Below are positions 34,460-44,021 of a stretch of DNA of 64,000 bases, piece by piece. A program made the position numbers and the translations under genes. The notes beneath the pieces were generated by a model, which was not told where the DNA came from, did no database searches, and saw only the letters and a list, made by a program, of their open reading frames with translations. Location of the stretch: contig CAZINT010000001.1 in assembly GCA_964540825.1 (NCBI GenBank), positions 142,735 through 206,734 of the forward strand, given 5' to 3'. Positions within the stretch are counted from its first letter, which is position 1. Each line of letters begins with the position of its first letter. This stretch comes from an uncultured Gammaproteobacteria bacterium (GTDB lineage: Bacteria; Patescibacteriota; Patescibacteriia; Magasanikbacterales; GWA2-37-8).

Positions 34460-37294
34460 ATGTCTTTTTTAACGAAAATTTTTGGCGATCCGAATGCCAA
34501 AGTGCTTAAAGAAATACAACCATTAGTTCAAAAAATTAATGAACTCGAGGCATCGCTTGCGCCGCTTTCAAATACTGAGCTCCAGGCCAAAACCCCGGAG
34601 TTTAAAGCCCGTCTTGCTAAAGGCGAAACACTTGACGATATTTTACCGGAAGCCTTTGCAGTTGTTCGTGAAGCGTCAAAACGCCTTACGGGCATGCGTC
34701 ATTTTGATTCGCAGTTGATCGGTGGTATTGCGCTCCATCGCGGCAACATTGCGGAAATGCACACGGGGGAAGGTAAGACGCTTACGGGAACGCTGCCGGT
34801 GTATTTGAATGCGCTTGCGGGTAAAGGTGTGCATGTTGTTACGGTCAACGATTACCTCGCCAAGCGTGACGCGGTTTGGATGGGGCAAATTTATGATTTT
34901 TTAGGACTCAGCGTTGGTATCATCCAAAATCAGTTGGTGTCATATCGTTATAACGCACTCGCCAAAGCAACGCCGGCGCTCGCCGAAGGAAGCGCGGAGG
35001 ACGCCGAGCGAGACCAAAAAGGAATGTTTAAGGTTGAGTATGATTATTTGGATGCTTGCTCGCGCCCGGCTGCGTACCAGTGTGATATTACCTACGGAAC
35101 CAACAATGAATTCGGTTTTGATTATTTGCGCGACAACATGGTGCAGTCGCTCGACGACCGGGCGCAGCGTGAATTGTATTTTGCTATTGTCGACGAAGTC
35201 GATTCTATTTTGATTGATGAAGCGCGTACCCCGCTCATTATTTCGGCTCCAGCCGAAGAGGCGGCGGATATGTACTACCGTTTTTCAGATTTAGTTGCGC
35301 AGCTGAATAAAACAGAAGATTATGTGGTAGACGAAAAGCTCCGCTCGGCAACGCTCACCGACGAGGGTATTAAAAAAATGGAACAATGGCTTGGCATTGA
35401 AAATATTTATGCTGAGGGCGGTATCACCACGGTGCATCATGTGGAGCAAGCGCTCCGGGCACGAGCGCTGTTTCAGCGTGACCGCGATTATGTTGTAGAA
35501 AATGGCGAGGTCGTGATCGTGGACGAATTTACCGGCCGCAAAATGCCGGGGCGCCGCTACAGTGAAGGCTTGCATCAGGCTATTGAAGCCCAGGAACGCG
35601 TTAAAATTCAGCGCGAGAGCCGTACGATGGCAACGGTCACGTTCCAGAATTATTTCCGCATGTATACGAAACTCTCCGGTATGACAGGTACGGCTGTAAC
35701 CGAAGCGGAAGAGTTCGGTAAGATATATAAGCTTGAAGTTGTCGTTATCCCAAGTAATAAAAAAAGTCAGCGCGTCGATCATCCTGATCGTATTTACAAA
35801 ACTGAAGACGCTAAATTCAGGGCAATCGCCAAACAAGTTCGGCTTTTGCAAGACAAGGGTCAGCCGGTTTTGATCGGTACGATCTCGGTACAAAAAAATG
35901 AACAATTAGCCGTGTATCTCGAGCAAGAGGGTGTGCAGTACCAAATGTTGAACGCCAAGAACCATGAACGCGAAGGTGAGATTGTGGCTCAGGCTGGCCG
36001 CCCGGGCGCTGTAACACTGGCCACCAACATGGCTGGTCGTGGTGTTGATATTATTATGGGCGGCAACCCGCCAGAAAAAGAATTGGCCGAAAAGGCGCGT
36101 AGCAGCGGCGGTTTGTTTGTTATTGGTACCGAGCGCCATGAATCACGCCGTATCGATAATCAGCTCCGCGGACGTTCTGGCCGCCAGGGTGACCCGGGTG
36201 AAACGCAGTTTTATCTTTCGACCGACGATGATCTCATGCGTATCTTTGCTGGAGAACGTCTTAAGCGTGCTATGGAAGCGCTCCGCGTGCCGGATGATAT
36301 GCCGATTGAGCAAAATACCATCACACGCCTTATTGAATCGGCGCAGCGCAAAGTAGAGGGTTTTCATTTTGATACGCGTAAAAATTTGCTTGAATACGAC
36401 GATGTTTTGAATCGTCACCGTGAAGTTATTTATGGCATGCGTTATCAGATTTTGAAAAGCTATAAGCAAGAAAAAGATCGTTTGGCCAGTGTAGTAGCAA
36501 CCACCCCTGCGACAAACCTGGATGTACAGGAGGTTGAAGTGAACGGTGAAGCAGCGCTGCGGCAGCGTATTTTCCAGATGATTGAAAGTGAGATTGAGCA
36601 GCTTGTTTCGTTCCACACCAATGCCGAAGACAAACATGATTGGCAGATGCAAGAAATTTATCAGACTGCGGCTACTATTTTTCCATTTTTCCCGGAAGAA
36701 AAAGAACAGCTCCTCAAGTTTGGTTCGTGGGGTGAACAGAAATTAGAAGCGGTCGAAGAACGTACCCGGGTGATAACCTTTTTGACTGATTTGGCAAAAC
36801 AAAAATACGAAGATTTGCTCGTCAAAAAAGCGGGCAAAGCTGAGTTTGTGCTGGAGATCGAAAAACAAATGCTGCTGCGTTCAATTGATAATTTATGGAT
36901 CGAACATTTGGTGGCGGTGGATTATCTGCGCACCGGTATCGGGCTGCGCGGCTATGGCCAGCGTGATCCACTCGTCGAATACAAAAAAGAAACCTTCCGT
37001 ATGTTTAACGAGTTGCTGAGCCTTATTCAAAAAGAAGTAGTCTACACGATTTTTAAAGTCAGTATCGGTATCGAGCTTGCTCCGAGCGTAATGGCTGCAA
37101 ACAATATGCAATTTCAAGGCGCTGAAAAGACGATGGGCGGAGAAATTACAAGTGCTGTTAATCGTGAACCAAAAAATGAAACCGGAGAAACGATTGGGCG
37201 CAACGATGTTTGTTTCTGCGGCAGCGGGGTTAAATATAAACGGTGCGGCATGGTGAACAGCGCCGAACATCAAAAATTTTTGGCCAAAAAATAA
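34460..37294 (+). CDS. secA: preprotein translocase ATPase SecA
   Basis: 944 aa; DEAD-like motor motifs (MHTGEGKT, DEVDSILIDEAR), C-terminal zinc motif CFCGSGVKYKRC. Confidence 0.95.
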   Translation: MSFLTKIFGDPNAKVLKEIQPLVQKINELEASLAPLSNTELQAKTPEFKARLAKGETLDDILPEAFAVVREASKRLTGMRHFDSQLIGGIALHRGNIAEMHTGEGKTLTGTLPVYLNALAGKGVHVVTVNDYLAKRDAVWMGQIYDFLGLSVGIIQNQLVSYRYNALAKATPALAEGSAEDAERDQKGMFKVEYDYLDACSRPAAYQCDITYGTNNEFGFDYLRDNMVQSLDDRAQRELYFAIVDEVDSILIDEARTPLIISAPAEEAADMYYRFSDLVAQLNKTEDYVVDEKLRSATLTDEGIKKMEQWLGIENIYAEGGITTVHHVEQALRARALFQRDRDYVVENGEVVIVDEFTGRKMPGRRYSEGLHQAIEAQERVKIQRESRTMATVTFQNYFRMYTKLSGMTGTAVTEAEEFGKIYKLEVVVIPSNKKSQRVDHPDRIYKTEDAKFRAIAKQVRLLQDKGQPVLIGTISVQKNEQLAVYLEQEGVQYQMLNAKNHEREGEIVAQAGRPGAVTLATNMAGRGVDIIMGGNPPEKELAEKARSSGGLFVIGTERHESRRIDNQLRGRSGRQGDPGETQFYLSTDDDLMRIFAGERLKRAMEALRVPDDMPIEQNTITRLIESAQRKVEGFHFDTRKNLLEYDDVLNRHREVIYGMRYQILKSYKQEKDRLASVVATTPATNLDVQEVEVNGEAALRQRIFQMIESEIEQLVSFHTNAEDKHDWQMQEIYQTAATIFPFFPEEKEQLLKFGSWGEQKLEAVEERTRVITFLTDLAKQKYEDLLVKKAGKAEFVLEIEKQMLLRSIDNLWIEHLVAVDYLRTGIGLRGYGQRDPLVEYKKETFRMFNELLSLIQKEVVYTIFKVSIGIELAPSVMAANNMQFQGAEKTMGGEITSAVNREPKNETGETIGRNDVCFCGSGVKYKRCGMVNSAEHQKFLAKK

Positions 37295-37756: not shown

Positions 37757-37761
37757 AAATT

Positions 37762-37790
37762 AAAAAACATCCCCACGGATGTTTTTTAAT
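37762..37790 (+). terminator. intrinsic terminator
   Basis: AAAACATCC-ccac-GGATGTTTT followed by TTAATT. Confidence 0.5.
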
Positions 37791-37883
37791 TCCCTTATTT
37801 TAGCGACGAATAGGCATCGCCATAATAGGGGAGGAGAACGTGCCATCCTCCCGTTTAAAAGGTGGAGGCGAGATTTCTCCTTA

Positions 37884-38339
37884 TCAGCGAAGCTGGGAGT
37901 ATATTTGGTGCACCGCCAGACCACCCAAGAGAACCATGATCCCGAAGGCTGTTGCGACGAGCGTGTCGTCGAGGCGAAAGCCGGTTACGTTATAGAACCG
38001 TTTTTCCAGACTCACTCGCCGAATAGGCGGAGGGAGTGGTGTGACCTGTTGGGTAGGTGTTGCATCGCGGCCAGCACTTGTTGCTGCGACCACCAAGGTG
38101 CTCTGGCGAGTACTCCTGGTATTGATGTCGAGCTTGAGGGTGTCACGCTGCGAAGGTGGCAGCGCGTCTTGCGCAGGCAGAACCGGTGGCGCCGCCGGCG
38201 GTGTTGGTAGGGTAAGGGCGTCTGGATTGTTGCCGGGGGCTGCGTCAGCCTTCTTTCCAAAGGGCACGGGCACCATACGGCGAGTGCCGCTAGGGCCGTA
38301 GTGGTCCACAAGTGGGGGTCTGCGGCGATATTTTGCCAT
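37884..38339 (-). CDS. hypothetical Pro-rich tail-anchored membrane protein in GC-rich islet
   Basis: ATG at 38339 with perfect GGAGGT RBS. MAKYRRRPP.., Pro-rich middle, single C-terminal TM IMVLLGGLAVHQIY. ~58% GC. The longer listed ORF (to 38831) overlaps the UDG gene and is rejected. Confidence 0.5.
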   Translation of the reverse strand: MAKYRRRPPLVDHYGPSGTRRMVPVPFGKKADAAPGNNPDALTLPTPPAAPPVLPAQDALPPSQRDTLKLDINTRSTRQSTLVVAATSAGRDATPTQQVTPLPPPIRRVSLEKRFYNVTGFRLDDTLVATAFGIMVLLGGLAVHQIYSQLR

Positions 38340-38492
38340 GGTTACCTCCGTAATTTTTCCGGTTGGCACGAGGCGTAAAATGCGCTTCAGGCTAACCGGA
38401 CAAATGGAGTAATAACGCGTAAGAATACTATTAATGGCACTGCCTGTCAAGTATGGTTGCTCTTGACGTGACACTCTGATAGGCTTAAGGAT

Positions 38493-39101
38493 ATGGTAAA
38501 AATTTCTTCTAAAATACAAAAAAAACAGCAATCGCTCAATGCCATAGCGGCGGAAATCGCCTGCTGCAAAATATGTCAGAAAAATAAAATTGGTGTATCG
38601 GTACCAGGGGAAGGCAACCCTGACGCTGCTATAGTTTTTTTGGGTGAGGCGCCCGGTAAGCAAGAAGCGATCACGGGCAGGCCGTTTATCGGTCGCTCCG
38701 GAAAAGTGTTGCGCGACCTCATTGGCGAACTTGGGCTTACTACCGAAGAAGTCTTTATAACCAGTCCGGTGAAGTATTTGCCAGAGTATGTAACACCCAC
38801 TCCCGAGGATATTGTTCATGGTAAAGTGCATTTAGAAAAACAATTGGCAATTATCGAGCCTAAAGTGATTGTGCTCTTAGGGCGCGTGGCAGCACTCGCC
38901 GTACTTGGTAATGTAGGAGCAGTTCTTAAAAATCACGGCACAGTCATAGAACAAGATGGGCGAAACTATTTTGTCACCATACATCCTGCAGCACCGCTGT
39001 ATGCCCCCAAACTTAAATCTGTTTTAGTTGCTGACTTTAAAAAATTGAAGCTTTTTTTAAAGCGCCAAGCTACGCCAGCTAAGTCGGGCTCTAAAAATTA
39101 A
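38493..39101 (+). CDS. uracil-DNA glycosylase, family 4
   Basis: GEGNPDAAIVFLGEAPGKQEAITGRPFIGRSGKVL (GEAPG motif) and a C-terminal HPAAPLY-type motif. Confidence 0.8.
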   Translation: MVKISSKIQKKQQSLNAIAAEIACCKICQKNKIGVSVPGEGNPDAAIVFLGEAPGKQEAITGRPFIGRSGKVLRDLIGELGLTTEEVFITSPVKYLPEYVTPTPEDIVHGKVHLEKQLAIIEPKVIVLLGRVAALAVLGNVGAVLKNHGTVIEQDGRNYFVTIHPAAPLYAPKLKSVLVADFKKLKLFLKRQATPAKSGSKN

Positions 39102-39201: not shown

Positions 39202-41253
39202 ATGCCTGTTAAACCCATGCGCGCTAGCAAGACGCCAACTCGCTCCCAAGTGAAGTCTCGATTGGCTGGTATTTTGATTCTCGTTGTTTTTTGTGCAATT
39301 GTTGCGGCTCCGAGTGTGGCTAATAAAGGAATAGATTGGGTAAACACCAAAGCCAACCTTGGTTTACCGCGCTTACCGGATAAAGGGTATAATTTAGGCC
39401 TTGATCTGCAAGGCGGCGCACATTTAATTTATCAGGCAAAGACCGACGCTATCCCCGAGGCTGATAAAGCCAGTTCCGTGGAAGGTGTGCGTGATGTTAT
39501 TGAACGCCGTGTGCGCGGCGGCCTTGGAGTAGCTGAACCGCTCGTCCAGACAACGAAAGTTGGCGGTGATTATCGTATTATTGTTGAGCTTCCGGGTGTT
39601 ACGGATGTAAATGAGGCAATCAAGAGTATCGGTGAAACACCGGTTTTGGAATTTAAAGAGGCAAATAACGAACCGCCCCGCGAGCTTACTGCCGAGGAAA
39701 CTAAACAATTAACAGCATTTAATAAAGCCGCCGACACCAAGGCAAAAGAAGCGCTGAGAGCCGTGCAAAAAGGGATGAATTTTGCCGAAGCCGCCACAAA
39801 ATATTCTGAAGACGACACGACTAAGGCAGTGGGCGGTGATCTTGGTTTTATTGACGACACGCTCTATCCAGAAATTTTTGCTTGGGCAAAATCTCATAAG
39901 ATTAATGAAGTAAGTTCAGCTCCGATTAGCGGCTCGACAGGACTTAATATTGTTAAGAAGTTAGCCGAAAAAGATGGCGAAAAAGAAGTAGCTGCTTCCC
40001 ATCTACTTATTTGTTATAAAGGCGCTGAACGCTGCGACAACCCGCAGTATCAGACCAAAGAAGAAGCCCTCGCTAAAATTCAGGAAATTCGCAAAACAAT
40101 TACTGCCAAAAATTTTGCCGAAATGGTTAAGAAATATTCTACTGAACCAGGAGCGGCAACCAGCGGAGGTGTACTTGGTACCTTTAAAAAAGGAACTATG
40201 GTCACAGCGTTTGAAAATGCTGTTTGGGATCAGCCGGTTGGTACTATTACCGAGCCGGTCGAAACGCAGTTTGGCTATCATTTGATCTATAAAACAGGGG
40301 AGACGATCAGTAAGCAATATCAAGTTGCCCGTATTTTGGTAAAAACTAAAACCAAAGCGGATATCGTTCCTCCGGCTGAACAGTGGAAATCGAGCGGCCT
40401 TACCGGTAAGCAGCTTAAGCGTGCCGAAGTTACTCAGGATCAGCGCACTGGTGAAATTCAGGTCAGTTTGAACTTTGATGACGCAGGGACGAAATTATTC
40501 GGTGAAATTACCGGACGAAATATCGGTAAATCAGTAGCGGTATTTTTGGATGGTGAAATTATTTCGGCTCCGGTAGTGAATGCTGCAATTACGACAGGTA
40601 GCGCGGTTATTACCGGTGGATTTAGCCTTAGCGATGCCAAGTTACTTGCGCAACGTCTTAATTCCGGTGCGCTTCCTGTACCAGTTGAACTCTTAAGTCA
40701 GCAAACTGTGGACGCTACGCTCGGTGCTGATTCGCTTACGAAGAGTTTCCGCGCAGGTATCTATGGACTTATTGCGGTTATGCTGTTTATGATTGTGTAC
40801 TACCGCTTACCGGGTCTTTTATCGGTATTTTCATTGGCATTTTACGCGCTTCTGAGCATGGCTGTCTTTAGGCTGATTGGCGTTACGCTAACGCTGTCTG
40901 GTATAGCCGGGTTTATTTTGTCGATTGGTATGGCGGTTGACGCGAACGTGCTTGTGTTTGAGCGCCTAAAAGAAGAATTAATCGGCGGCCGTACGCTTAA
41001 AGCCGCAACCGAAGAAGCCTTCTTACGCTCCTGGCCATCGATTCGCGATAGCCATATTACCGCGCTTATCAGCTGCGTGTTCTTGATCTGGTTTGGCAGC
41101 GGCTTTATTCAAGGTTTTGCCGTTATCTTGGCTGTTGGTACGCTTATTAACCTGTTCACTGCGATTACCGTTACTCGTACGATCATGCGTTTCATTTTTG
41201 ACCATATTAATGAAAAGGCGAATGCTTTATTCTTAGGCCACCGAGCACAATAG
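39202..41253 (+). CDS. secD: protein translocase subunit SecD with two parvulin-type PPIase domains inserted in the periplasmic head
   Basis: SecD signatures GLDLQGG and C-terminal 6-TM domain (GMAVDANVLVFERLKEE). Residues ~155–395 carry two PpiC/parvulin domains (..KYSEDDTTKAVGGDLGFI.. and ..HLLI..KKYSTEPGAATSGGVLGTF..MVTAFE..TQFGYHLIYK). Confidence 0.85.
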   Translation: MPVKPMRASKTPTRSQVKSRLAGILILVVFCAIVAAPSVANKGIDWVNTKANLGLPRLPDKGYNLGLDLQGGAHLIYQAKTDAIPEADKASSVEGVRDVIERRVRGGLGVAEPLVQTTKVGGDYRIIVELPGVTDVNEAIKSIGETPVLEFKEANNEPPRELTAEETKQLTAFNKAADTKAKEALRAVQKGMNFAEAATKYSEDDTTKAVGGDLGFIDDTLYPEIFAWAKSHKINEVSSAPISGSTGLNIVKKLAEKDGEKEVAASHLLICYKGAERCDNPQYQTKEEALAKIQEIRKTITAKNFAEMVKKYSTEPGAATSGGVLGTFKKGTMVTAFENAVWDQPVGTITEPVETQFGYHLIYKTGETISKQYQVARILVKTKTKADIVPPAEQWKSSGLTGKQLKRAEVTQDQRTGEIQVSLNFDDAGTKLFGEITGRNIGKSVAVFLDGEIISAPVVNAAITTGSAVITGGFSLSDAKLLAQRLNSGALPVPVELLSQQTVDATLGADSLTKSFRAGIYGLIAVMLFMIVYYRLPGLLSVFSLAFYALLSMAVFRLIGVTLTLSGIAGFILSIGMAVDANVLVFERLKEELIGGRTLKAATEEAFLRSWPSIRDSHITALISCVFLIWFGSGFIQGFAVILAVGTLINLFTAITVTRTIMRFIFDHINEKANALFLGHRAQ

Positions 41254-41254
41254 T

Positions 41255-42163
41255 ATGAAATTTCCTTTTATCCGTTATACCAAAGTTTGGCTTACCATTG
41301 CCTCGGCTACAGTCGTTATTTGTCTTGCGATGGTTATTGGTTGGGGTTTAAAGCCGGGTATCGATTTTACCGGGGGTTCGCTCATGGAACTAACCTTCTC
41401 TAAGAATCGCCCCGATGTCGCCCCGATGCAAAAGATTTTTGAAGATTTAGGTGAGAAAGATACTATCATTCAAAAATCTGGTGACAATAAAATGCTGGTT
41501 CGCACAGGTTTTCTTCAGGAAGATCAGCACCAGAAGGCCCTTAAAGCTGTAAAAACGGCCTTTGAGAAAGACGGGGCTACTGTTCGCGAAGATAGTTTTG
41601 AAACGATTGGTGCGGTTGTCAGTCAGCAGCTTCGCCAGCGTTCTATTTGGGCTATTAGCTTGGTATGTCTCAGTATTATTTTGTACCTTGCTTACGCGTT
41701 TCGTAAAGTTTCCAAGCCGATTGCTAGTTGGAAATACGGCCTCCTTGCTGTAGTTGCCCTGGTGCATGATGTCATTTTGGTGCTTGGTGTATTTGCTGCC
41801 CTCGGTCACTTCTTTGGTGTTGAGGTAGATATTGCGTTTGTGGTTGCTATCCTTACGGTGCTTGGGTACTCGGTAAACGACACTATCGTAGTATACGATC
41901 GTATTCGTGAAAATTTACAGCGTCATAGCTCGCCTGATTTTGGCGAAGTTGTAAATAACGGCTTAAACGATACTCTGGCGCGTTCAATCAATACGACACT
42001 CACGGTACTTTTGCCGCTGTTTGCTCTATATTTCATTGGTGGTCCTACGATTCATAACTTTGCCTTAGCACTTCTTATCGGTATGGCTAGTGGTGCGTAT
42101 TCTTCCATCTTCATTGCTAGTCCGCTTTTGGTAGTTGCCGAACGTTTGCAGCGCCGGGCATAA
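41255..42163 (+). CDS. secF: protein translocase subunit SecF
   Basis: 6-TM SecF with GIDFTGGS and the periplasmic loop. Confidence 0.9.
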   Translation: MKFPFIRYTKVWLTIASATVVICLAMVIGWGLKPGIDFTGGSLMELTFSKNRPDVAPMQKIFEDLGEKDTIIQKSGDNKMLVRTGFLQEDQHQKALKAVKTAFEKDGATVREDSFETIGAVVSQQLRQRSIWAISLVCLSIILYLAYAFRKVSKPIASWKYGLLAVVALVHDVILVLGVFAALGHFFGVEVDIAFVVAILTVLGYSVNDTIVVYDRIRENLQRHSSPDFGEVVNNGLNDTLARSINTTLTVLLPLFALYFIGGPTIHNFALALLIGMASGAYSSIFIASPLLVVAERLQRRA

Positions 42164-42455: not shown

Positions 42456-42548
42456 CTGATAGCTCGAAATTGGTAATGTGAAATATGCACTGAAGCAGCG
42501 TGTGAGTCCCTGCAGAACAAGCTACAAGATTTGAGTTACAAGAGTATT

Positions 42549-44021
42549 ATGGAAAGTTTTTTAACACTCCCTTTTGGTATAAATCTGAACCTGTCGTTTT
42601 GGCAGAATCTTTTTTTGTTGCCGCCGTATGAGTTAATTATTTTTTTGTTTGGCCTGGGCGGCTGGACCGCGCTCGCACTCATCTTTTTTTTCATGGGTTC
42701 CGAGCTGTGGAAAAGTTATCGCCAAGATAAATATTCCAAAAAATGGCAGTGGGTAGTGCTTGCGGTTGATGTCCCTGCGCTCTTTATTCAAACTCCAAAG
42801 GCAGTCGAACAGATTTTTGTCCACCTGAGTGGTGCCCGGGTTGCTCCTAATATCGGCCAAAAATATTGGCAAGGACAAAAGCAAAAAAGTTTTAGTTTTG
42901 AAATTGTCAGTATCGAAGGATATATTCAGTTTTTAATTCGCACGGAAATTGAATTCCGTGATCTGGTTGAAGCAGCTATTTATGCCCAGTATACTGAAGC
43001 CGAAATTACTGAAGTGGAGGATTATGTGGATAATATTCCGTCGCATTACCCGCACCCTAATTATGATATGTATGGCATCGAATTTGCGCTCGAGGAGCAT
43101 ACTGCTTTTCCGATCCGTACATATCCAAGCTTTGAATACAATTTGAGTAAAGATGCGGTGTTTAGCGACCCTATGGCGGCGATACTTGAAAACTTTAGCC
43201 GTATTGGCCGGGGAGAGAATTTTTGGATGCAAATCATTATTGAGCCAACCAGTAATAGCTGGAAAAAAGAAGGTATTGAACTTGTTAAAGCCTTTGTTGC
43301 CGGTAAAGGGAGTGTGGGGCATGGTGGTCATGGCGGACACGGAGGTGGTGGTGTGCTGAGCAGTGTGTTGTCGGGAATTATGAGTGTGGCTAATACCATA
43401 ATTAAAGAAATTGGGACAGCGCTTTTGGGCGGCGGTGAGGATCACCACGATGCCGGTGGGCACGATGCGCATGAAGAGGGTAAACTAAGCGACTTGTCGC
43501 CGGGTAATAAGGCGGTTATCGAAGCGATTGAACAGAAAATTGCTAAAATCGGCTTCAAAACCAAACTGCGCATACTCTATGCTGCCCGTAAAGAGGTGTT
43601 TAACCCTGGAAAATGTGTGGGCGGGTTTGTGGGTGCTATGAATCAATTTCATGTTCAGAACAGTAATGCGCTTGTGCCGCACCATGATACGTCAGCCCAT
43701 TACCTATGGGCTAAGTCGCGAACTGATCACCACAAACATCATTTTACCGGAGCGTTTAAGAAACGAAAGTTAAAAGCACTTGGTAATCCGTATATTCTGA
43801 ATATTGAAGAATTAGCTACTATTTGGCACTTCCCACTACCATTTGTCAAAACACCGCTTATCCAAAAAGCCGGTGCCAAACGGGCCGAACCTCCAATGGG
43901 TCTGCCGGTCGAAGCCAGCGAAAGCCCGCTCAAACGCCGTACACCGGTGCCACAAGGGCCTGCAACACCCCCACCAGCTGCTGTGGTACCCGAAGCCCCC
44001 GAAGATCTGCCGTATGGCTAA
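42549..44021 (+). CDS. hypothetical membrane protein, paralog of the N-terminal domain of the 50872..53424 ATPase
   Basis: N-terminal TMs. Blocks FEIV..RDLVEAAIYAQYTEAEITEVEDY and ATIWHFPLPFVKTPLIQKAGAKRAEPPMGLP align with the ATPase N-domain. His/Gly-rich insert GHGGHGGHGGGG..HHDAGGHDAHEEG. Confidence 0.55.
   Translation: MESFLTLPFGINLNLSFWQNLFLLPPYELIIFLFGLGGWTALALIFFFMGSELWKSYRQDKYSKKWQWVVLAVDVPALFIQTPKAVEQIFVHLSGARVAPNIGQKYWQGQKQKSFSFEIVSIEGYIQFLIRTEIEFRDLVEAAIYAQYTEAEITEVEDYVDNIPSHYPHPNYDMYGIEFALEEHTAFPIRTYPSFEYNLSKDAVFSDPMAAILENFSRIGRGENFWMQIIIEPTSNSWKKEGIELVKAFVAGKGSVGHGGHGGHGGGGVLSSVLSGIMSVANTIIKEIGTALLGGGEDHHDAGGHDAHEEGKLSDLSPGNKAVIEAIEQKIAKIGFKTKLRILYAARKEVFNPGKCVGGFVGAMNQFHVQNSNALVPHHDTSAHYLWAKSRTDHHKHHFTGAFKKRKLKALGNPYILNIEELATIWHFPLPFVKTPLIQKAGAKRAEPPMGLPVEASESPLKRRTPVPQGPATPPPAAVVPEAPEDLPYG

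What the first reader, a model, noticed from the sequence alone, without database searches (positions are those of the whole stretch)
39664..40390. SecD carries two parvulin-type peptidyl-prolyl isomerase domains inserted in its extracytoplasmic head
The secD ORF has the normal N-terminal TM, the GLDLQGG base of the P1 domain and the C-terminal 6-TM bundle. Residues ~155–395 contain two PpiC/parvulin modules. The second is near-canonical: HLLI...KKYSTEPGAATSGGVLGTFKKGTMVTAFENAVW...PVETQFGYHLIYK. The first is partial: KYSEDDTTKAVGGDLGFIDD...PEIFAWA...APISGSTGLNIV. Parvulin foldases such as PrsA and SurA normally act on proteins emerging from SecYEG as separate proteins. A covalent fusion to SecD would couple translocation and prolyl isomerisation in one polypeptide.
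Basis: partly seen in the sequence, partly recalled or inferred. Interest (0 to 1): 0.6.

Follow-up and report, generated by a model that had tools for sequence, protein, structure and literature searches.

The report
SecD translocase with built-in parvulin foldase
This candidate-phyla-radiation bacterium has two parvulin-type prolyl-isomerase/chaperone domains built into the outer part of its SecD export-motor protein, an architecture conserved in many related uncultured bacteria but, as far as I could find, never described in the literature.

Summary
The 683-aa secD ORF (39202-41253, +) contains two significant Pfam Rotamase hits (aa ~171-252 and 267-364). They lie between SecD_1st (aa 94-155) and an intact SecDF_P1_head (aa 397-493). 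The insert therefore sits at the P1 base/head junction and does not replace the head.

It is not an assembly artefact. More than 130 homologues from independent assemblies share the architecture (Magasanikbacteria, Uhrbacteria, Parcubacteria; 41-100% identity).

Module 2 is a canonical parvulin with a conserved catalytic tetrad and an almost invariant Cys271/Cys278 pair. Module 1 has lost both catalytic histidines.

New findings:
- A sister class of about 560-aa SecDs carries one parvulin whose His-bearing beta1 strand follows the core, which indicates a circular permutation.
- AlphaFold2 (insert alone: pLDDT 94, pTM 0.79) predicts that module 2 is nested at the tip of the beta4/beta1' hairpin of a permuted module 1.

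The most likely function is a translocon-tethered foldase/holdase acting on chains that the proton-driven P1 head pulls out. The closest analogues are non-covalent: SurA-SecDF, PpiD-YfgM-SecYEG, and the Mycoplasma PrsA-like dome on SecDF. No paper describing the covalent fusion was found. I rate it a new variant of a known kind, of moderate to high interest.

The parts
39202..41253 (+). secD ORF, 683 aa, including the stop codon
   Evidence: TIGR01129 secD scores 364 bits against a cut-off of 244. An identical protein was assembled independently on Logan contig L084 with the same neighbours.
39262..39318 (+). TM1 (aa 21-39)
   Evidence: Hydropathy 2.71; helix 14-35 in the AF2 model.
39385..39663 (+). 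P1-base N-terminal part (aa 62-154): GLDLQGG motif and SecD_1st, ending in the invariant LEFKE strand
   Evidence: Pfam Sec_GG and SecD_1st. Aligns to T. thermophilus SecDF residues 32-118. L149 and F151 are conserved in 132/132 homologues.
39664..39969 (+). Parvulin module 1, N-terminal portion (aa 155-256): Pro-rich linker, long alpha1 helix, and core with beta2-beta4. Catalytically degenerate (D204 kept; Asn249 replaces the beta4 His).
   Evidence: Rotamase E 1.3e-12, profile positions 12-94 of 97. N249 is N in 101, S in 19 and H in 2 of 132 homologues. AF2 pLDDT 84-98.
39976..40302 (+). Parvulin module 2 (aa 259-367): canonical beta1-loop-alpha1-core-beta4. Putative active site H267 (40000-40002), E315 (40144-40146), T355 (40264-40266), H360 (40279-40281). 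Conserved Cys271/Cys278 in the beta1-alpha1 loop.
40303..40353 (+). Return strand (aa 368-384, TISKQYQVARILVKTKT): inferred beta1' of permuted module 1, with Arg377 in the histidine position
   Evidence: Collinear with the invariant C-terminal 'xHIL' strand of single-parvulin SecDs, where the His is present in 99/99. AF2 gives continuous strands 247-270 and 358-381. Position 377 is R in 110 and H in 13 of 132 homologues.
40354..40680 (+). P1 head (aa 385-493), intact
   Evidence: Pfam SecDF_P1_head E 1.6e-29. Aligns to T. thermophilus SecDF from residue 140 onward.
40684..41193 (+). TM2-TM6 (SecD_SecF_C, aa 495-664), including the conserved TM4 Asp580 (40939-40941)
   Evidence: Pfam and NCBIfam. 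D580 is invariant and aligns to the 'AVDGNVL' motif of TtSecDF.
41255..42163 (+). secF, 302 aa, starting 2 nt after secD
   Evidence: TIGR00966 scores 290.6 bits against a cut-off of 160.
34460..37294 (+). secA, upstream on the same strand (genomic context only)
   Evidence: ORF translation. SecA Pfam domains are recorded on the identical Logan contig.

Best explanation
This is a genuine, vertically conserved variant of SecD from a Patescibacteria/CPR genome close to Candidatus Magasanikbacteria. A roughly 230-residue unit is spliced into the extracytoplasmic P1 domain, exactly where the last P1-base strand (LEFKE) hands over to the mobile P1 head.

The unit consists of two parvulin folds joined by a rigid two-stranded beta-ribbon.
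- The proximal module (aa ~160-256 plus ~368-384) is circularly permuted and has lost its catalytic histidines.
- The distal module (aa ~259-367) is nested at the tip of the proximal module's beta4/beta1' hairpin. It is canonical and keeps the catalytic His-Glu/Asp-Thr-His network, the hydrophobic proline pocket and a conserved Cys-x6-Cys loop.

The SecD motor parts are intact: GG motif, P1 base, P1 head, TM4 Asp580, and the adjacent secF.

Inferred mechanism: SecDF uses the proton-motive force to swing its P1 head and pull unfolded chains out of SecYEG. The tethered parvulin pair sits next to that substrate-binding head. Module 1 would hold the chain, as SurA P1 and the PpiD parvulin domain do. 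Module 2 would catalyse prolyl cis/trans isomerisation. The protein thereby does in cis what PrsA, SurA, PpiD or the Mycoplasma Mdp proteins do as separate translocon-associated proteins.

Shown here: the architecture, its conservation, residue retention and the predicted fold. Inferred: PPIase or holdase activity, and any coupling to head movement.
For: - Domain architecture.
- Conservation: 120 of the 120 best homologues carry Rotamase plus all SecD domains at 63-100% identity, from NCBI, JGI, ENA and Logan assemblies. In genome contigs, 11 species have two modules, 6 have one, and 2 Peregrinibacteria have a divergent two-module form. SecDs of Saccharibacteria, Chloroflexi and Cyanobacteria have none. 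About 20 of the 150 best 50%-identity representatives found with the insert as query are SecD fusions.
- Catalytic residues of module 2: H267 131/132, E315 123 E plus 8 D, T355 124 T plus 8 S, H360 132/132, L325/M333/F337 at least 125/132, C271/C278 131/132.
- Topology: AF2 on the insert gives pLDDT 94 and pTM 0.79, with unbroken 24-residue strands 247-270 and 358-381. True hairpins in the same models show breaks. In the single-parvulin class, the His on the strand after the core is 99/99 and the beta4 His is 99/99, while the N-terminal strand is SecD's own LEFKE. Module 2 aligns from beta1 onward with a canonical free-standing parvulin at 46% identity.
- Motor intact: D580 and the secF motifs are present.
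- Independent functional link: stand-alone membrane-anchored P1-head plus parvulin proteins exist.
- Literature: the P1 head binds precursor proteins and moves with the PMF (PMC5974789). AF2 places the SurA P1/P2 parvulin domains on the SecDF P1 head, and SurA binds the holo-translocon (PMC9987972). PrsA-like PPIC lipoproteins form a dome on SecDF-SecYEG in M. pneumoniae (10.1101/2025.04.25.650208; 10.1101/2024.09.05.611430).
Against: - No biochemical activity can be tested here.
- Module 2 has Glu, not the usual Asp or Cys, at the Pin1-C113 position. My mapping of residues onto the Pin1/Par14 catalytic network rests on motif knowledge plus HMMER alignments to PrsA and NmPin, not on a structure-based residue alignment.
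- The nested topology is read from DSSP strings. A tandem-permuted alternative fits the conserved Asp258-Gly259 and the 17-18-residue His-to-His spacing.
- The full-length model has low pTM (0.38), so the position of the parvulin unit relative to the head, the base and SecYEG is unknown.
- Whether these genomes lack a separate PrsA-like foldase could not be checked. None lies in the 64-kb window or within 3 kb of secD in 80 loci.
Confidence: 0.72

Rival explanations
1. The parvulin unit is purely a chaperone or substrate-binding extension of the P1 head (a holdase or extra grip for the pulling motor). On this view prolyl isomerase catalysis is irrelevant, as with SurA, whose chaperone function does not need its PPIase activity, and with the inactive parvulin domain of PpiD.
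For: Module 1 has lost both histidines. The best tandem match is SurA. The rigid two-domain unit (pTM 0.79) looks like a binding platform. The insert sits beside the substrate-binding head.
Against: The catalytic network and proline pocket of module 2 are almost invariant across 132 two-module SecDs, and the equivalent residues are almost invariant across 99 single-module SecDs. That is hard to explain without selection on the active site.
Confidence: 0.2
2. The insert is regulatory or structural rather than a foldase. For example, it could act in cis on conserved Pro-containing linkers (NEPPR, IVPP) to gate P1-head movement, or it could dock SecDF to another envelope component such as the cell wall, pili or YidC.
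For: The insertion lies exactly at the base/head junction, flanked by Pro-rich conserved linkers. The P1 head must swing for SecDF to function.
Against: There is no direct evidence. The same parvulin subtype occurs in stand-alone P1-head plus parvulin proteins that have no motor, which argues for a substrate-directed role. Published parvulin-Sec associations are all foldase or chaperone systems.
Confidence: 0.06
3. The fusion is an artefact: a mis-assembly or a frameshift joined secD to a neighbouring prsA-like gene.
For: None was found. The source is a metagenome-assembled genome.
Against: The parvulin sequence is internal, flanked on both sides by SecD segments in one continuous frame. More than 130 homologues from independent studies and assemblers share the architecture. 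An independent Logan assembly gives the identical protein. No separate parvulin gene lies next to secD in related loci.
Confidence: 0.01

Closest known systems
Canonical SecD/SecDF (T. thermophilus 3AQP/5YHF, D. radiodurans 5XAN)
   Same: It shares the GG motif, P1 base, P1 head, TM2-6 with the proton-relay Asp, and an adjacent secF. Foldseek E values are 3e-22 to 1e-19, and TIGR01129 is passed.
   Different: About 224 residues forming two parvulin folds replace the roughly 21-residue base-to-head connector.
SurA (E. coli, 1M5Y) and its proposed docking on the SecDF P1 head (Troman et al. 2023, PMC9987972)
   Same: Both have a tandem of an inactive-type and an active-type parvulin. The insert aligns collinearly with SurA P1-P2. 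Published AF2 models put the SurA parvulins on the P1 head.
   Different: The SurA N- and C-terminal chaperone module is absent. The link to SecD is covalent, not transient. Module 1 is permuted and module 2 is nested. The host lineage is generally considered to lack an outer membrane (my own knowledge). The NCBIfam SurA score of 61.6 is far below the 394 cut-off.
PrsA (Firmicutes lipoprotein foldase) and the M. pneumoniae PrsA-like Mdp444/436/489 dome on SecDF-SecYEG
   Same: These are extracytoplasmic parvulin PPIases positioned at the Sec exit in bacteria that lack an outer membrane. The best single-domain sequence matches of the insert are PrsA PPIase domains. Mdp444 crosslinks to SecDF.
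   Different: Those are separate lipoproteins with a trigger-factor/SurA-like chaperone domain. Here there is no such domain and the parvulins are part of the SecD chain.
PpiD-YfgM at SecYEG (8ZHT)
   Same: It is a membrane-tethered parvulin-containing chaperone at the translocon, and its parvulin domain is catalytically inactive, as module 1 appears to be. Weak structural matches were found.
   Different: PpiD is a separate single-pass protein with one parvulin inserted in a chaperone domain.
Single-parvulin SecD of Buchanan-, Falkow-, Kerfeld- and Moranbacteria (about 560 aa)
   Same: It has the same insertion site, the same flanking LEFKE strand and 'xHIL...W' return strand, and belongs to the same CPR radiation.
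   Different: It carries one permuted, apparently active parvulin (His/Asp/Thr/His all at least 97/99). The window protein adds a second, canonical parvulin, and its first module has degenerated.

Membership tests
SecD (TIGR01129 / Pfam SecD_1st + SecDF_P1_head + SecD_SecF_C) | Passes the curated family score | tested here: met
   TIGR01129 scores 364.3 bits against a cut-off of 244.4. All three Pfam domains score above their cut-offs.
SecD (TIGR01129 / Pfam SecD_1st + SecDF_P1_head + SecD_SecF_C) | TM1, a large extracytoplasmic P1 (base plus head), TM2-6 with a conserved TM4 Asp, and partner SecF | tested here: met
   D580 is invariant. secF starts 2 nt downstream.
SecD (TIGR01129 / Pfam SecD_1st + SecDF_P1_head + SecD_SecF_C) | PMF-dependent enhancement of protein export | not testable with these tools
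   This needs genetics or biochemistry.
Parvulin PPIase (Pfam PF00639 Rotamase), module 2 | Sequence profile above the gathering score over the full domain | tested here: met
   79.8 bits against 21.7, covering profile positions 1-95 of 97.
Parvulin PPIase (Pfam PF00639 Rotamase), module 2 | Parvulin fold (4-stranded sheet plus helices) | tested here: met
Parvulin PPIase (Pfam PF00639 Rotamase), module 2 | Catalytic His / Asp(Cys) / Thr(Ser) / His network | tested here: met
   H267, E315 (Glu in place of Asp), T355 and H360 are present and 93-100% conserved. The mapping uses HMMER alignments to PrsA and NmPin plus established motif knowledge.
Parvulin PPIase (Pfam PF00639 Rotamase), module 2 | Measured cis/trans isomerase activity | not testable with these tools
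   An enzyme assay is required.
Parvulin PPIase (Pfam PF00639 Rotamase), module 1 | Sequence profile above the gathering score | tested here: met
   49 bits against 21.7, but only profile positions 12-94 are covered.
Parvulin PPIase (Pfam PF00639 Rotamase), module 1 | Catalytic dual histidines | tested here: not met
   Asn249 and Arg377 occupy the His positions. Across 132 homologues, 249 is N in 101 and S in 19, and 377 is R in 110. Module 1 therefore has the parvulin fold but is probably not an enzyme.
Parvulin PPIase (Pfam PF00639 Rotamase), module 1 | Complete four-stranded fold in canonical order | tested here: inconclusive
   beta1 is absent N-terminally. AF2 DSSP and the single-parvulin class indicate that aa 373-381 supply it, giving a circular permutation. 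Coordinates were not inspectable.
SurA | N- and C-terminal SurA chaperone module flanking the parvulins; curated score | tested here: not met
   There are no SurA_N, PF13624 or PF09312 hits. NF008038 scores 61.6 bits against 394.
PrsA | Lipoprotein with an NC chaperone domain around one parvulin; curated score | tested here: not met
   NF002846 scores 81 bits against 361. No lipobox or chaperone domain is present, and the parvulins are embedded in SecD.

The most novel reading that the evidence does not exclude
The parvulin pair is mechanically coupled to the proton-driven swing of the P1 head. Each power stroke would present the emerging chain to a tethered isomerase/holdase, making a PMF-powered 'pull-and-fold' machine. 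Alternatively, the isomerase would act on the conserved Pro-rich hinge linkers to gate the stroke. In either case the nested, circularly permuted double parvulin would be a new structural solution for inserting a foldase into a moving hinge. The fusion would also serve as direct evolutionary (Rosetta-stone) evidence that SecDF's general role includes handing substrates to parvulin chaperones.
Probability: 0.15. Interest if true: 0.85.

Novelty: new variant of a known kind. Interest (0 to 1): 0.6.

Why it matters
How proteins leaving SecYEG are passed to folding factors is an open question. Current evidence for links between SecDF and chaperones is indirect: SurA-HTL low-resolution EM with AF2 models, PpiD-YfgM, and the Mycoplasma dome.

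A natural, widely conserved covalent fusion of parvulin modules to SecD, right beside the substrate-binding P1 head, is independent evolutionary evidence that the two activities work together. It also offers a compact single-chain system (P1 domain or SecDF) in which to test this structurally and biochemically.

It further suggests how genome-reduced CPR bacteria may economise on envelope proteostasis. Finally, it provides a likely example of a circularly permuted and nested parvulin. I am not aware of one having been described, though I ran no literature search on parvulin permutation.

Tried and rejected
- Artefactual fusion was rejected.
- 'PPIase modules replace the P1 head' was rejected. 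The head is intact.
- 'Module 1 is a truncated relic' was rejected in favour of a permuted domain completed by aa 368-384.
- The insert-only word-index homologue search oddly missed the full-length fusions and returned mainly fragments and free parvulins. The exhaustive representative search was used instead.
- The AFDB50 fold library was unavailable.
- Model coordinates are not exposed, so no contact map could be computed.
- Rfam scans of the window and of the 37.7-38.5 kb gap found only tRNAs.
- Five of the six literature searches covered SecD/SecDF with parvulin, PPIase, rotamase, PpiC, CPR and domain-fusion terms. They found no description of the fusion.
- A search for separate parvulin genes in the window and next to secD in 80 loci found none.
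Full report
**Observation.** The window carries a 683-aa ORF at 39202-41253 (+). secF follows 2 nt downstream (41255-42163), and secA lies upstream at 34460-37294.

Pfam on the ORF gives, in order:
- Sec_GG at aa 64-83;
- SecD_1st at aa 94-155;
- two Rotamase/Rotamase_3 stretches (whole-protein E about 1e-34);
- SecDF_P1_head at aa 397-493;
- SecD_SecF_C at aa 495-664.

NCBIfam TIGR01129 (secD) scores 364 bits against a cut-off of 244. PrsA, SurA and PpiC models hit only weakly, far below their cut-offs.

Scanned separately, aa 155-256 gives Rotamase E 1.3e-12 over profile positions 12-94 of 97. aa 257-396 gives Rotamase E 3.2e-22 over positions 1-95 of 97.

Three details need correction:
- The insert precedes an intact P1 head and is not within it.
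- SecD has one N-terminal and five C-terminal TM helices.
- The reported end coordinate is one base past residue 396.

Against T. thermophilus SecDF (3AQP), query aa 62-154 match Tt 32-118 and query aa 379-667 match Tt 140-427. About 224 residues therefore replace a connector of about 21 residues between the last P1-base strand (LEFKE/LEFR) and the head.

**Not an artefact.** The parvulin sequence is internal to SecD in one continuous frame. The 120 best database homologues (63-100% identity, from NCBI, JGI, ENA and Logan assemblies) all carry Rotamase plus every SecD domain. Where they are named, the names are 'protein translocase subunit SecD' of Candidatus Magasanikbacteria or Patescibacteria. 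An independent Logan assembly encodes the identical protein with the same neighbours.

**Distribution.** In one-genome-per-species contigs:
- 11 species have the two-module form. They are Magasanikbacteria, Uhrbacteria and Parcubacteria, plus several MAGs whose labels (Gammaproteobacteria, Binatia) look doubtful to me given that their SecDs sit among Patescibacteria sequences.
- 6 species have a single module: MAGs labelled Buchananbacteria, Kerfeldbacteria and Moranbacteria, one unclassified Patescibacteria MAG, one labelled only 'bacterium', and one labelled Lysobacteraceae.
- 2 Peregrinibacteria have a SecD-SecF fusion with a divergent two-module insert.
- SecDs of Saccharibacteria, many other Parcubacteria, Chloroflexi and Cyanobacteria have no insert.

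An exhaustive HMMER search of 1.84 billion 50%-identity representatives, using the insert as query, found 21,104 parvulin relatives. About 20 of the best 150 are SecD fusions. A search with a Buchananbacteria SecD returned mostly single-parvulin SecDs of about 560 aa, 94 of the 120 listed, all with the Rotamase domain.

**Anatomy of the modules.** In 132 two-module SecDs, module 2 keeps:
- H267 (131/132);
- E315 (123 Glu, 8 Asp);
- T355 (124 Thr, 8 Ser);
- H360 (132/132);
- pocket residues L325, M333 and F337 (at least 125/132);
- a Cys271/Cys278 pair (131/132) in the beta1-alpha1 loop.

HMMER alignments to PrsA and NmPin put E315 on their Asp. They put T355 and H360 on the Ser/His of their 'S.FGYH' motif.

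Module 1 keeps Asp204 but has Asn249 where the beta4 His should be (101 Asn, 19 Ser, 2 His). It has no N-terminal His strand. Module 2 is therefore a plausible enzyme, and module 1 is probably a non-catalytic binding domain. SurA shows the same inactive-plus-active pattern. SurA is also the best tandem match:
- phmmer aligns query 22-209 to SurA 174-359.
- Foldseek gives E 8e-11.
- NCBIfam SurA aligns aa 176-363.

**Permutation and nesting.** In 99 single-parvulin SecDs, the strand before the parvulin core is SecD's own invariant LEFKE. An 'xHIL' strand follows the core about 20 residues after the beta4 His. Its His is 99/99, the beta4 His is 99/99, Asp is 97/99 and Thr/Ser is 99/99. A complete catalytic network exists only if that C-terminal strand is the missing beta1, which makes this a circularly permuted parvulin. 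A permuted domain of this kind has adjacent termini, which suits insertion into a loop.

In the window protein the collinear strand is aa 373-381 (YQVARILVK), with Arg377 in the His position (110 Arg, 13 His of 132). Both homologues that have His249 also have His377.

Two AlphaFold2 models were made:
- full length: pLDDT 77.5, with 84-90 across the insert;
- aa 141-410 alone: pLDDT 94, pTM 0.79.

Both give two unbroken 24-residue strands, 247-270 and 358-381. Genuine hairpins in the same models show two-residue breaks. I read this as one long antiparallel ribbon. At one end, the beta4 strand of module 1 pairs with aa 373-381. At the other end, the beta1 strand of module 2 (263-270) pairs with its own beta4 strand (358-364). 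Module 2 is thus a canonical parvulin nested at the tip of module 1's beta4/beta1' hairpin.

Further support:
- Module 2 aligns from beta1 onward, through the 'HxLIxYxGAxR...TKEEA' loop, with canonical repeats of the free-standing triple-parvulin protein P0127 at 46% identity.

A tandem-permuted alternative (Asp258-Gly259 turn; His spacings of 18 and 17) is not excluded, because I could not inspect coordinates.

**Mechanism.** The SecD motor elements are intact: Asp580 in TM4, the P1 head, and SecF. Published work shows that the P1 head binds precursor proteins in an amphiphilic cavity and changes orientation (Super-F, F and I forms) with proton flow (PMC5974789). The parvulin unit is attached at the junction on which that head moves.

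I infer that it acts as a translocon-tethered holdase (module 1) plus prolyl isomerase (module 2) for chains emerging from SecYEG. This is inference, and no activity could be tested.

Rivals:
- Holdase-only role: confidence about 0.2. It is disfavoured by the near-invariant active site.
- Regulatory or docking role: about 0.06.
- Artefact: about 0.01.

**Comparison with known systems.** The closest functional analogues are all non-covalent:
- SurA binds the holo-translocon, and in AF2 models its P1/P2 parvulin domains contact the SecDF P1 head (PMC9987972).
- PpiD-YfgM associates with SecYEG (PMC9643414, listed).
- The PrsA-like PPIC lipoproteins Mdp444/436/489 form a dome over SecDF-SecYEG in M. 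pneumoniae, with crosslinks to SecDF and measured PPIase activity.

The protein is a member of the SecD family, and its modules are members of the parvulin superfamily. It is not a SurA, PrsA or PpiD, because the chaperone modules are absent and the curated scores are not met.

Five of the six full-text searches targeted the fusion and found no description of a SecD-parvulin fusion. Public databases label these proteins simply SecD.

**Verdict.** This is a real, conserved and apparently undescribed variant of SecD with an integrated parvulin foldase unit. Its topology is unusual: permuted and probably nested. I rate novelty as a new variant of a known kind, and interest as about 0.6. It would not overturn the field, but it gives independent evolutionary evidence for SecDF-foldase coupling and a compact system in which to test it.

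Noticed in passing
L001 6001-6846 (also L002, L003); proteins P0132-P0135, P0137, P0287, P0353, P0378, P0388: These are stand-alone proteins of about 280 aa with an N-terminal TM, a SecDF P1-head-like domain and a parvulin. The parvulin is 50-58% identical to module 2 and includes the Cys-x6-Cys loop. P0388 has the two domains in the opposite order. In L001 the gene lies upstream of Zn-ribbon/TPR proteins and a 694-aa trypsin-like protease. This is a second, independent pairing of P1 head with parvulin.
   Followed up: partly
L016, L017, L019-L022; proteins P0390-P0509: A large class of SecDs of about 560 aa (Buchanan-, Falkow-, Kerfeld- and Moranbacteria) carries a single parvulin. Its invariant His-bearing beta1 strand follows the core, which implies a circular permutation. 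The hairpin loop is variable, usually 20 residues between the two histidines and up to 38.
   Followed up: yes
L015 865-4062 and L018 2989-6435: Peregrinibacteria encode a fused SecD-SecF (1066-1149 aa stop-to-stop). It carries a two-module insert whose first module is very divergent and has large extra loops.
   Followed up: no
window 37757-38492: About 740 nt lie between the EVE-domain gene and the UDG-family gene. The region contains only overlapping Arg/Pro-rich ORFs (37779-38210 +, 37884-38831 -). It has no Rfam match, even at a permissive threshold. In the Logan contig a 143-aa gene without any Pfam hit is called there.
   Followed up: partly
window 42531-44021 (+): A 496-aa ORF lies directly downstream of secF. 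It has N-terminal hydrophobic segments, a Gly/His-rich stretch (GHGGHGGHGGGG...HHDAGGHDAHEE) and a Pro-rich C-terminus. It has no Pfam hit.
   Followed up: no
L006, L007, L011, L014, L016 (record titles): Several MAGs whose SecD is clearly of the Patescibacteria parvulin-bearing type are titled 'uncultured Gammaproteobacteria', 'Candidatus Binatia' or 'Lysobacteraceae'. These are probably taxonomic mislabels in the source records.
   Followed up: no
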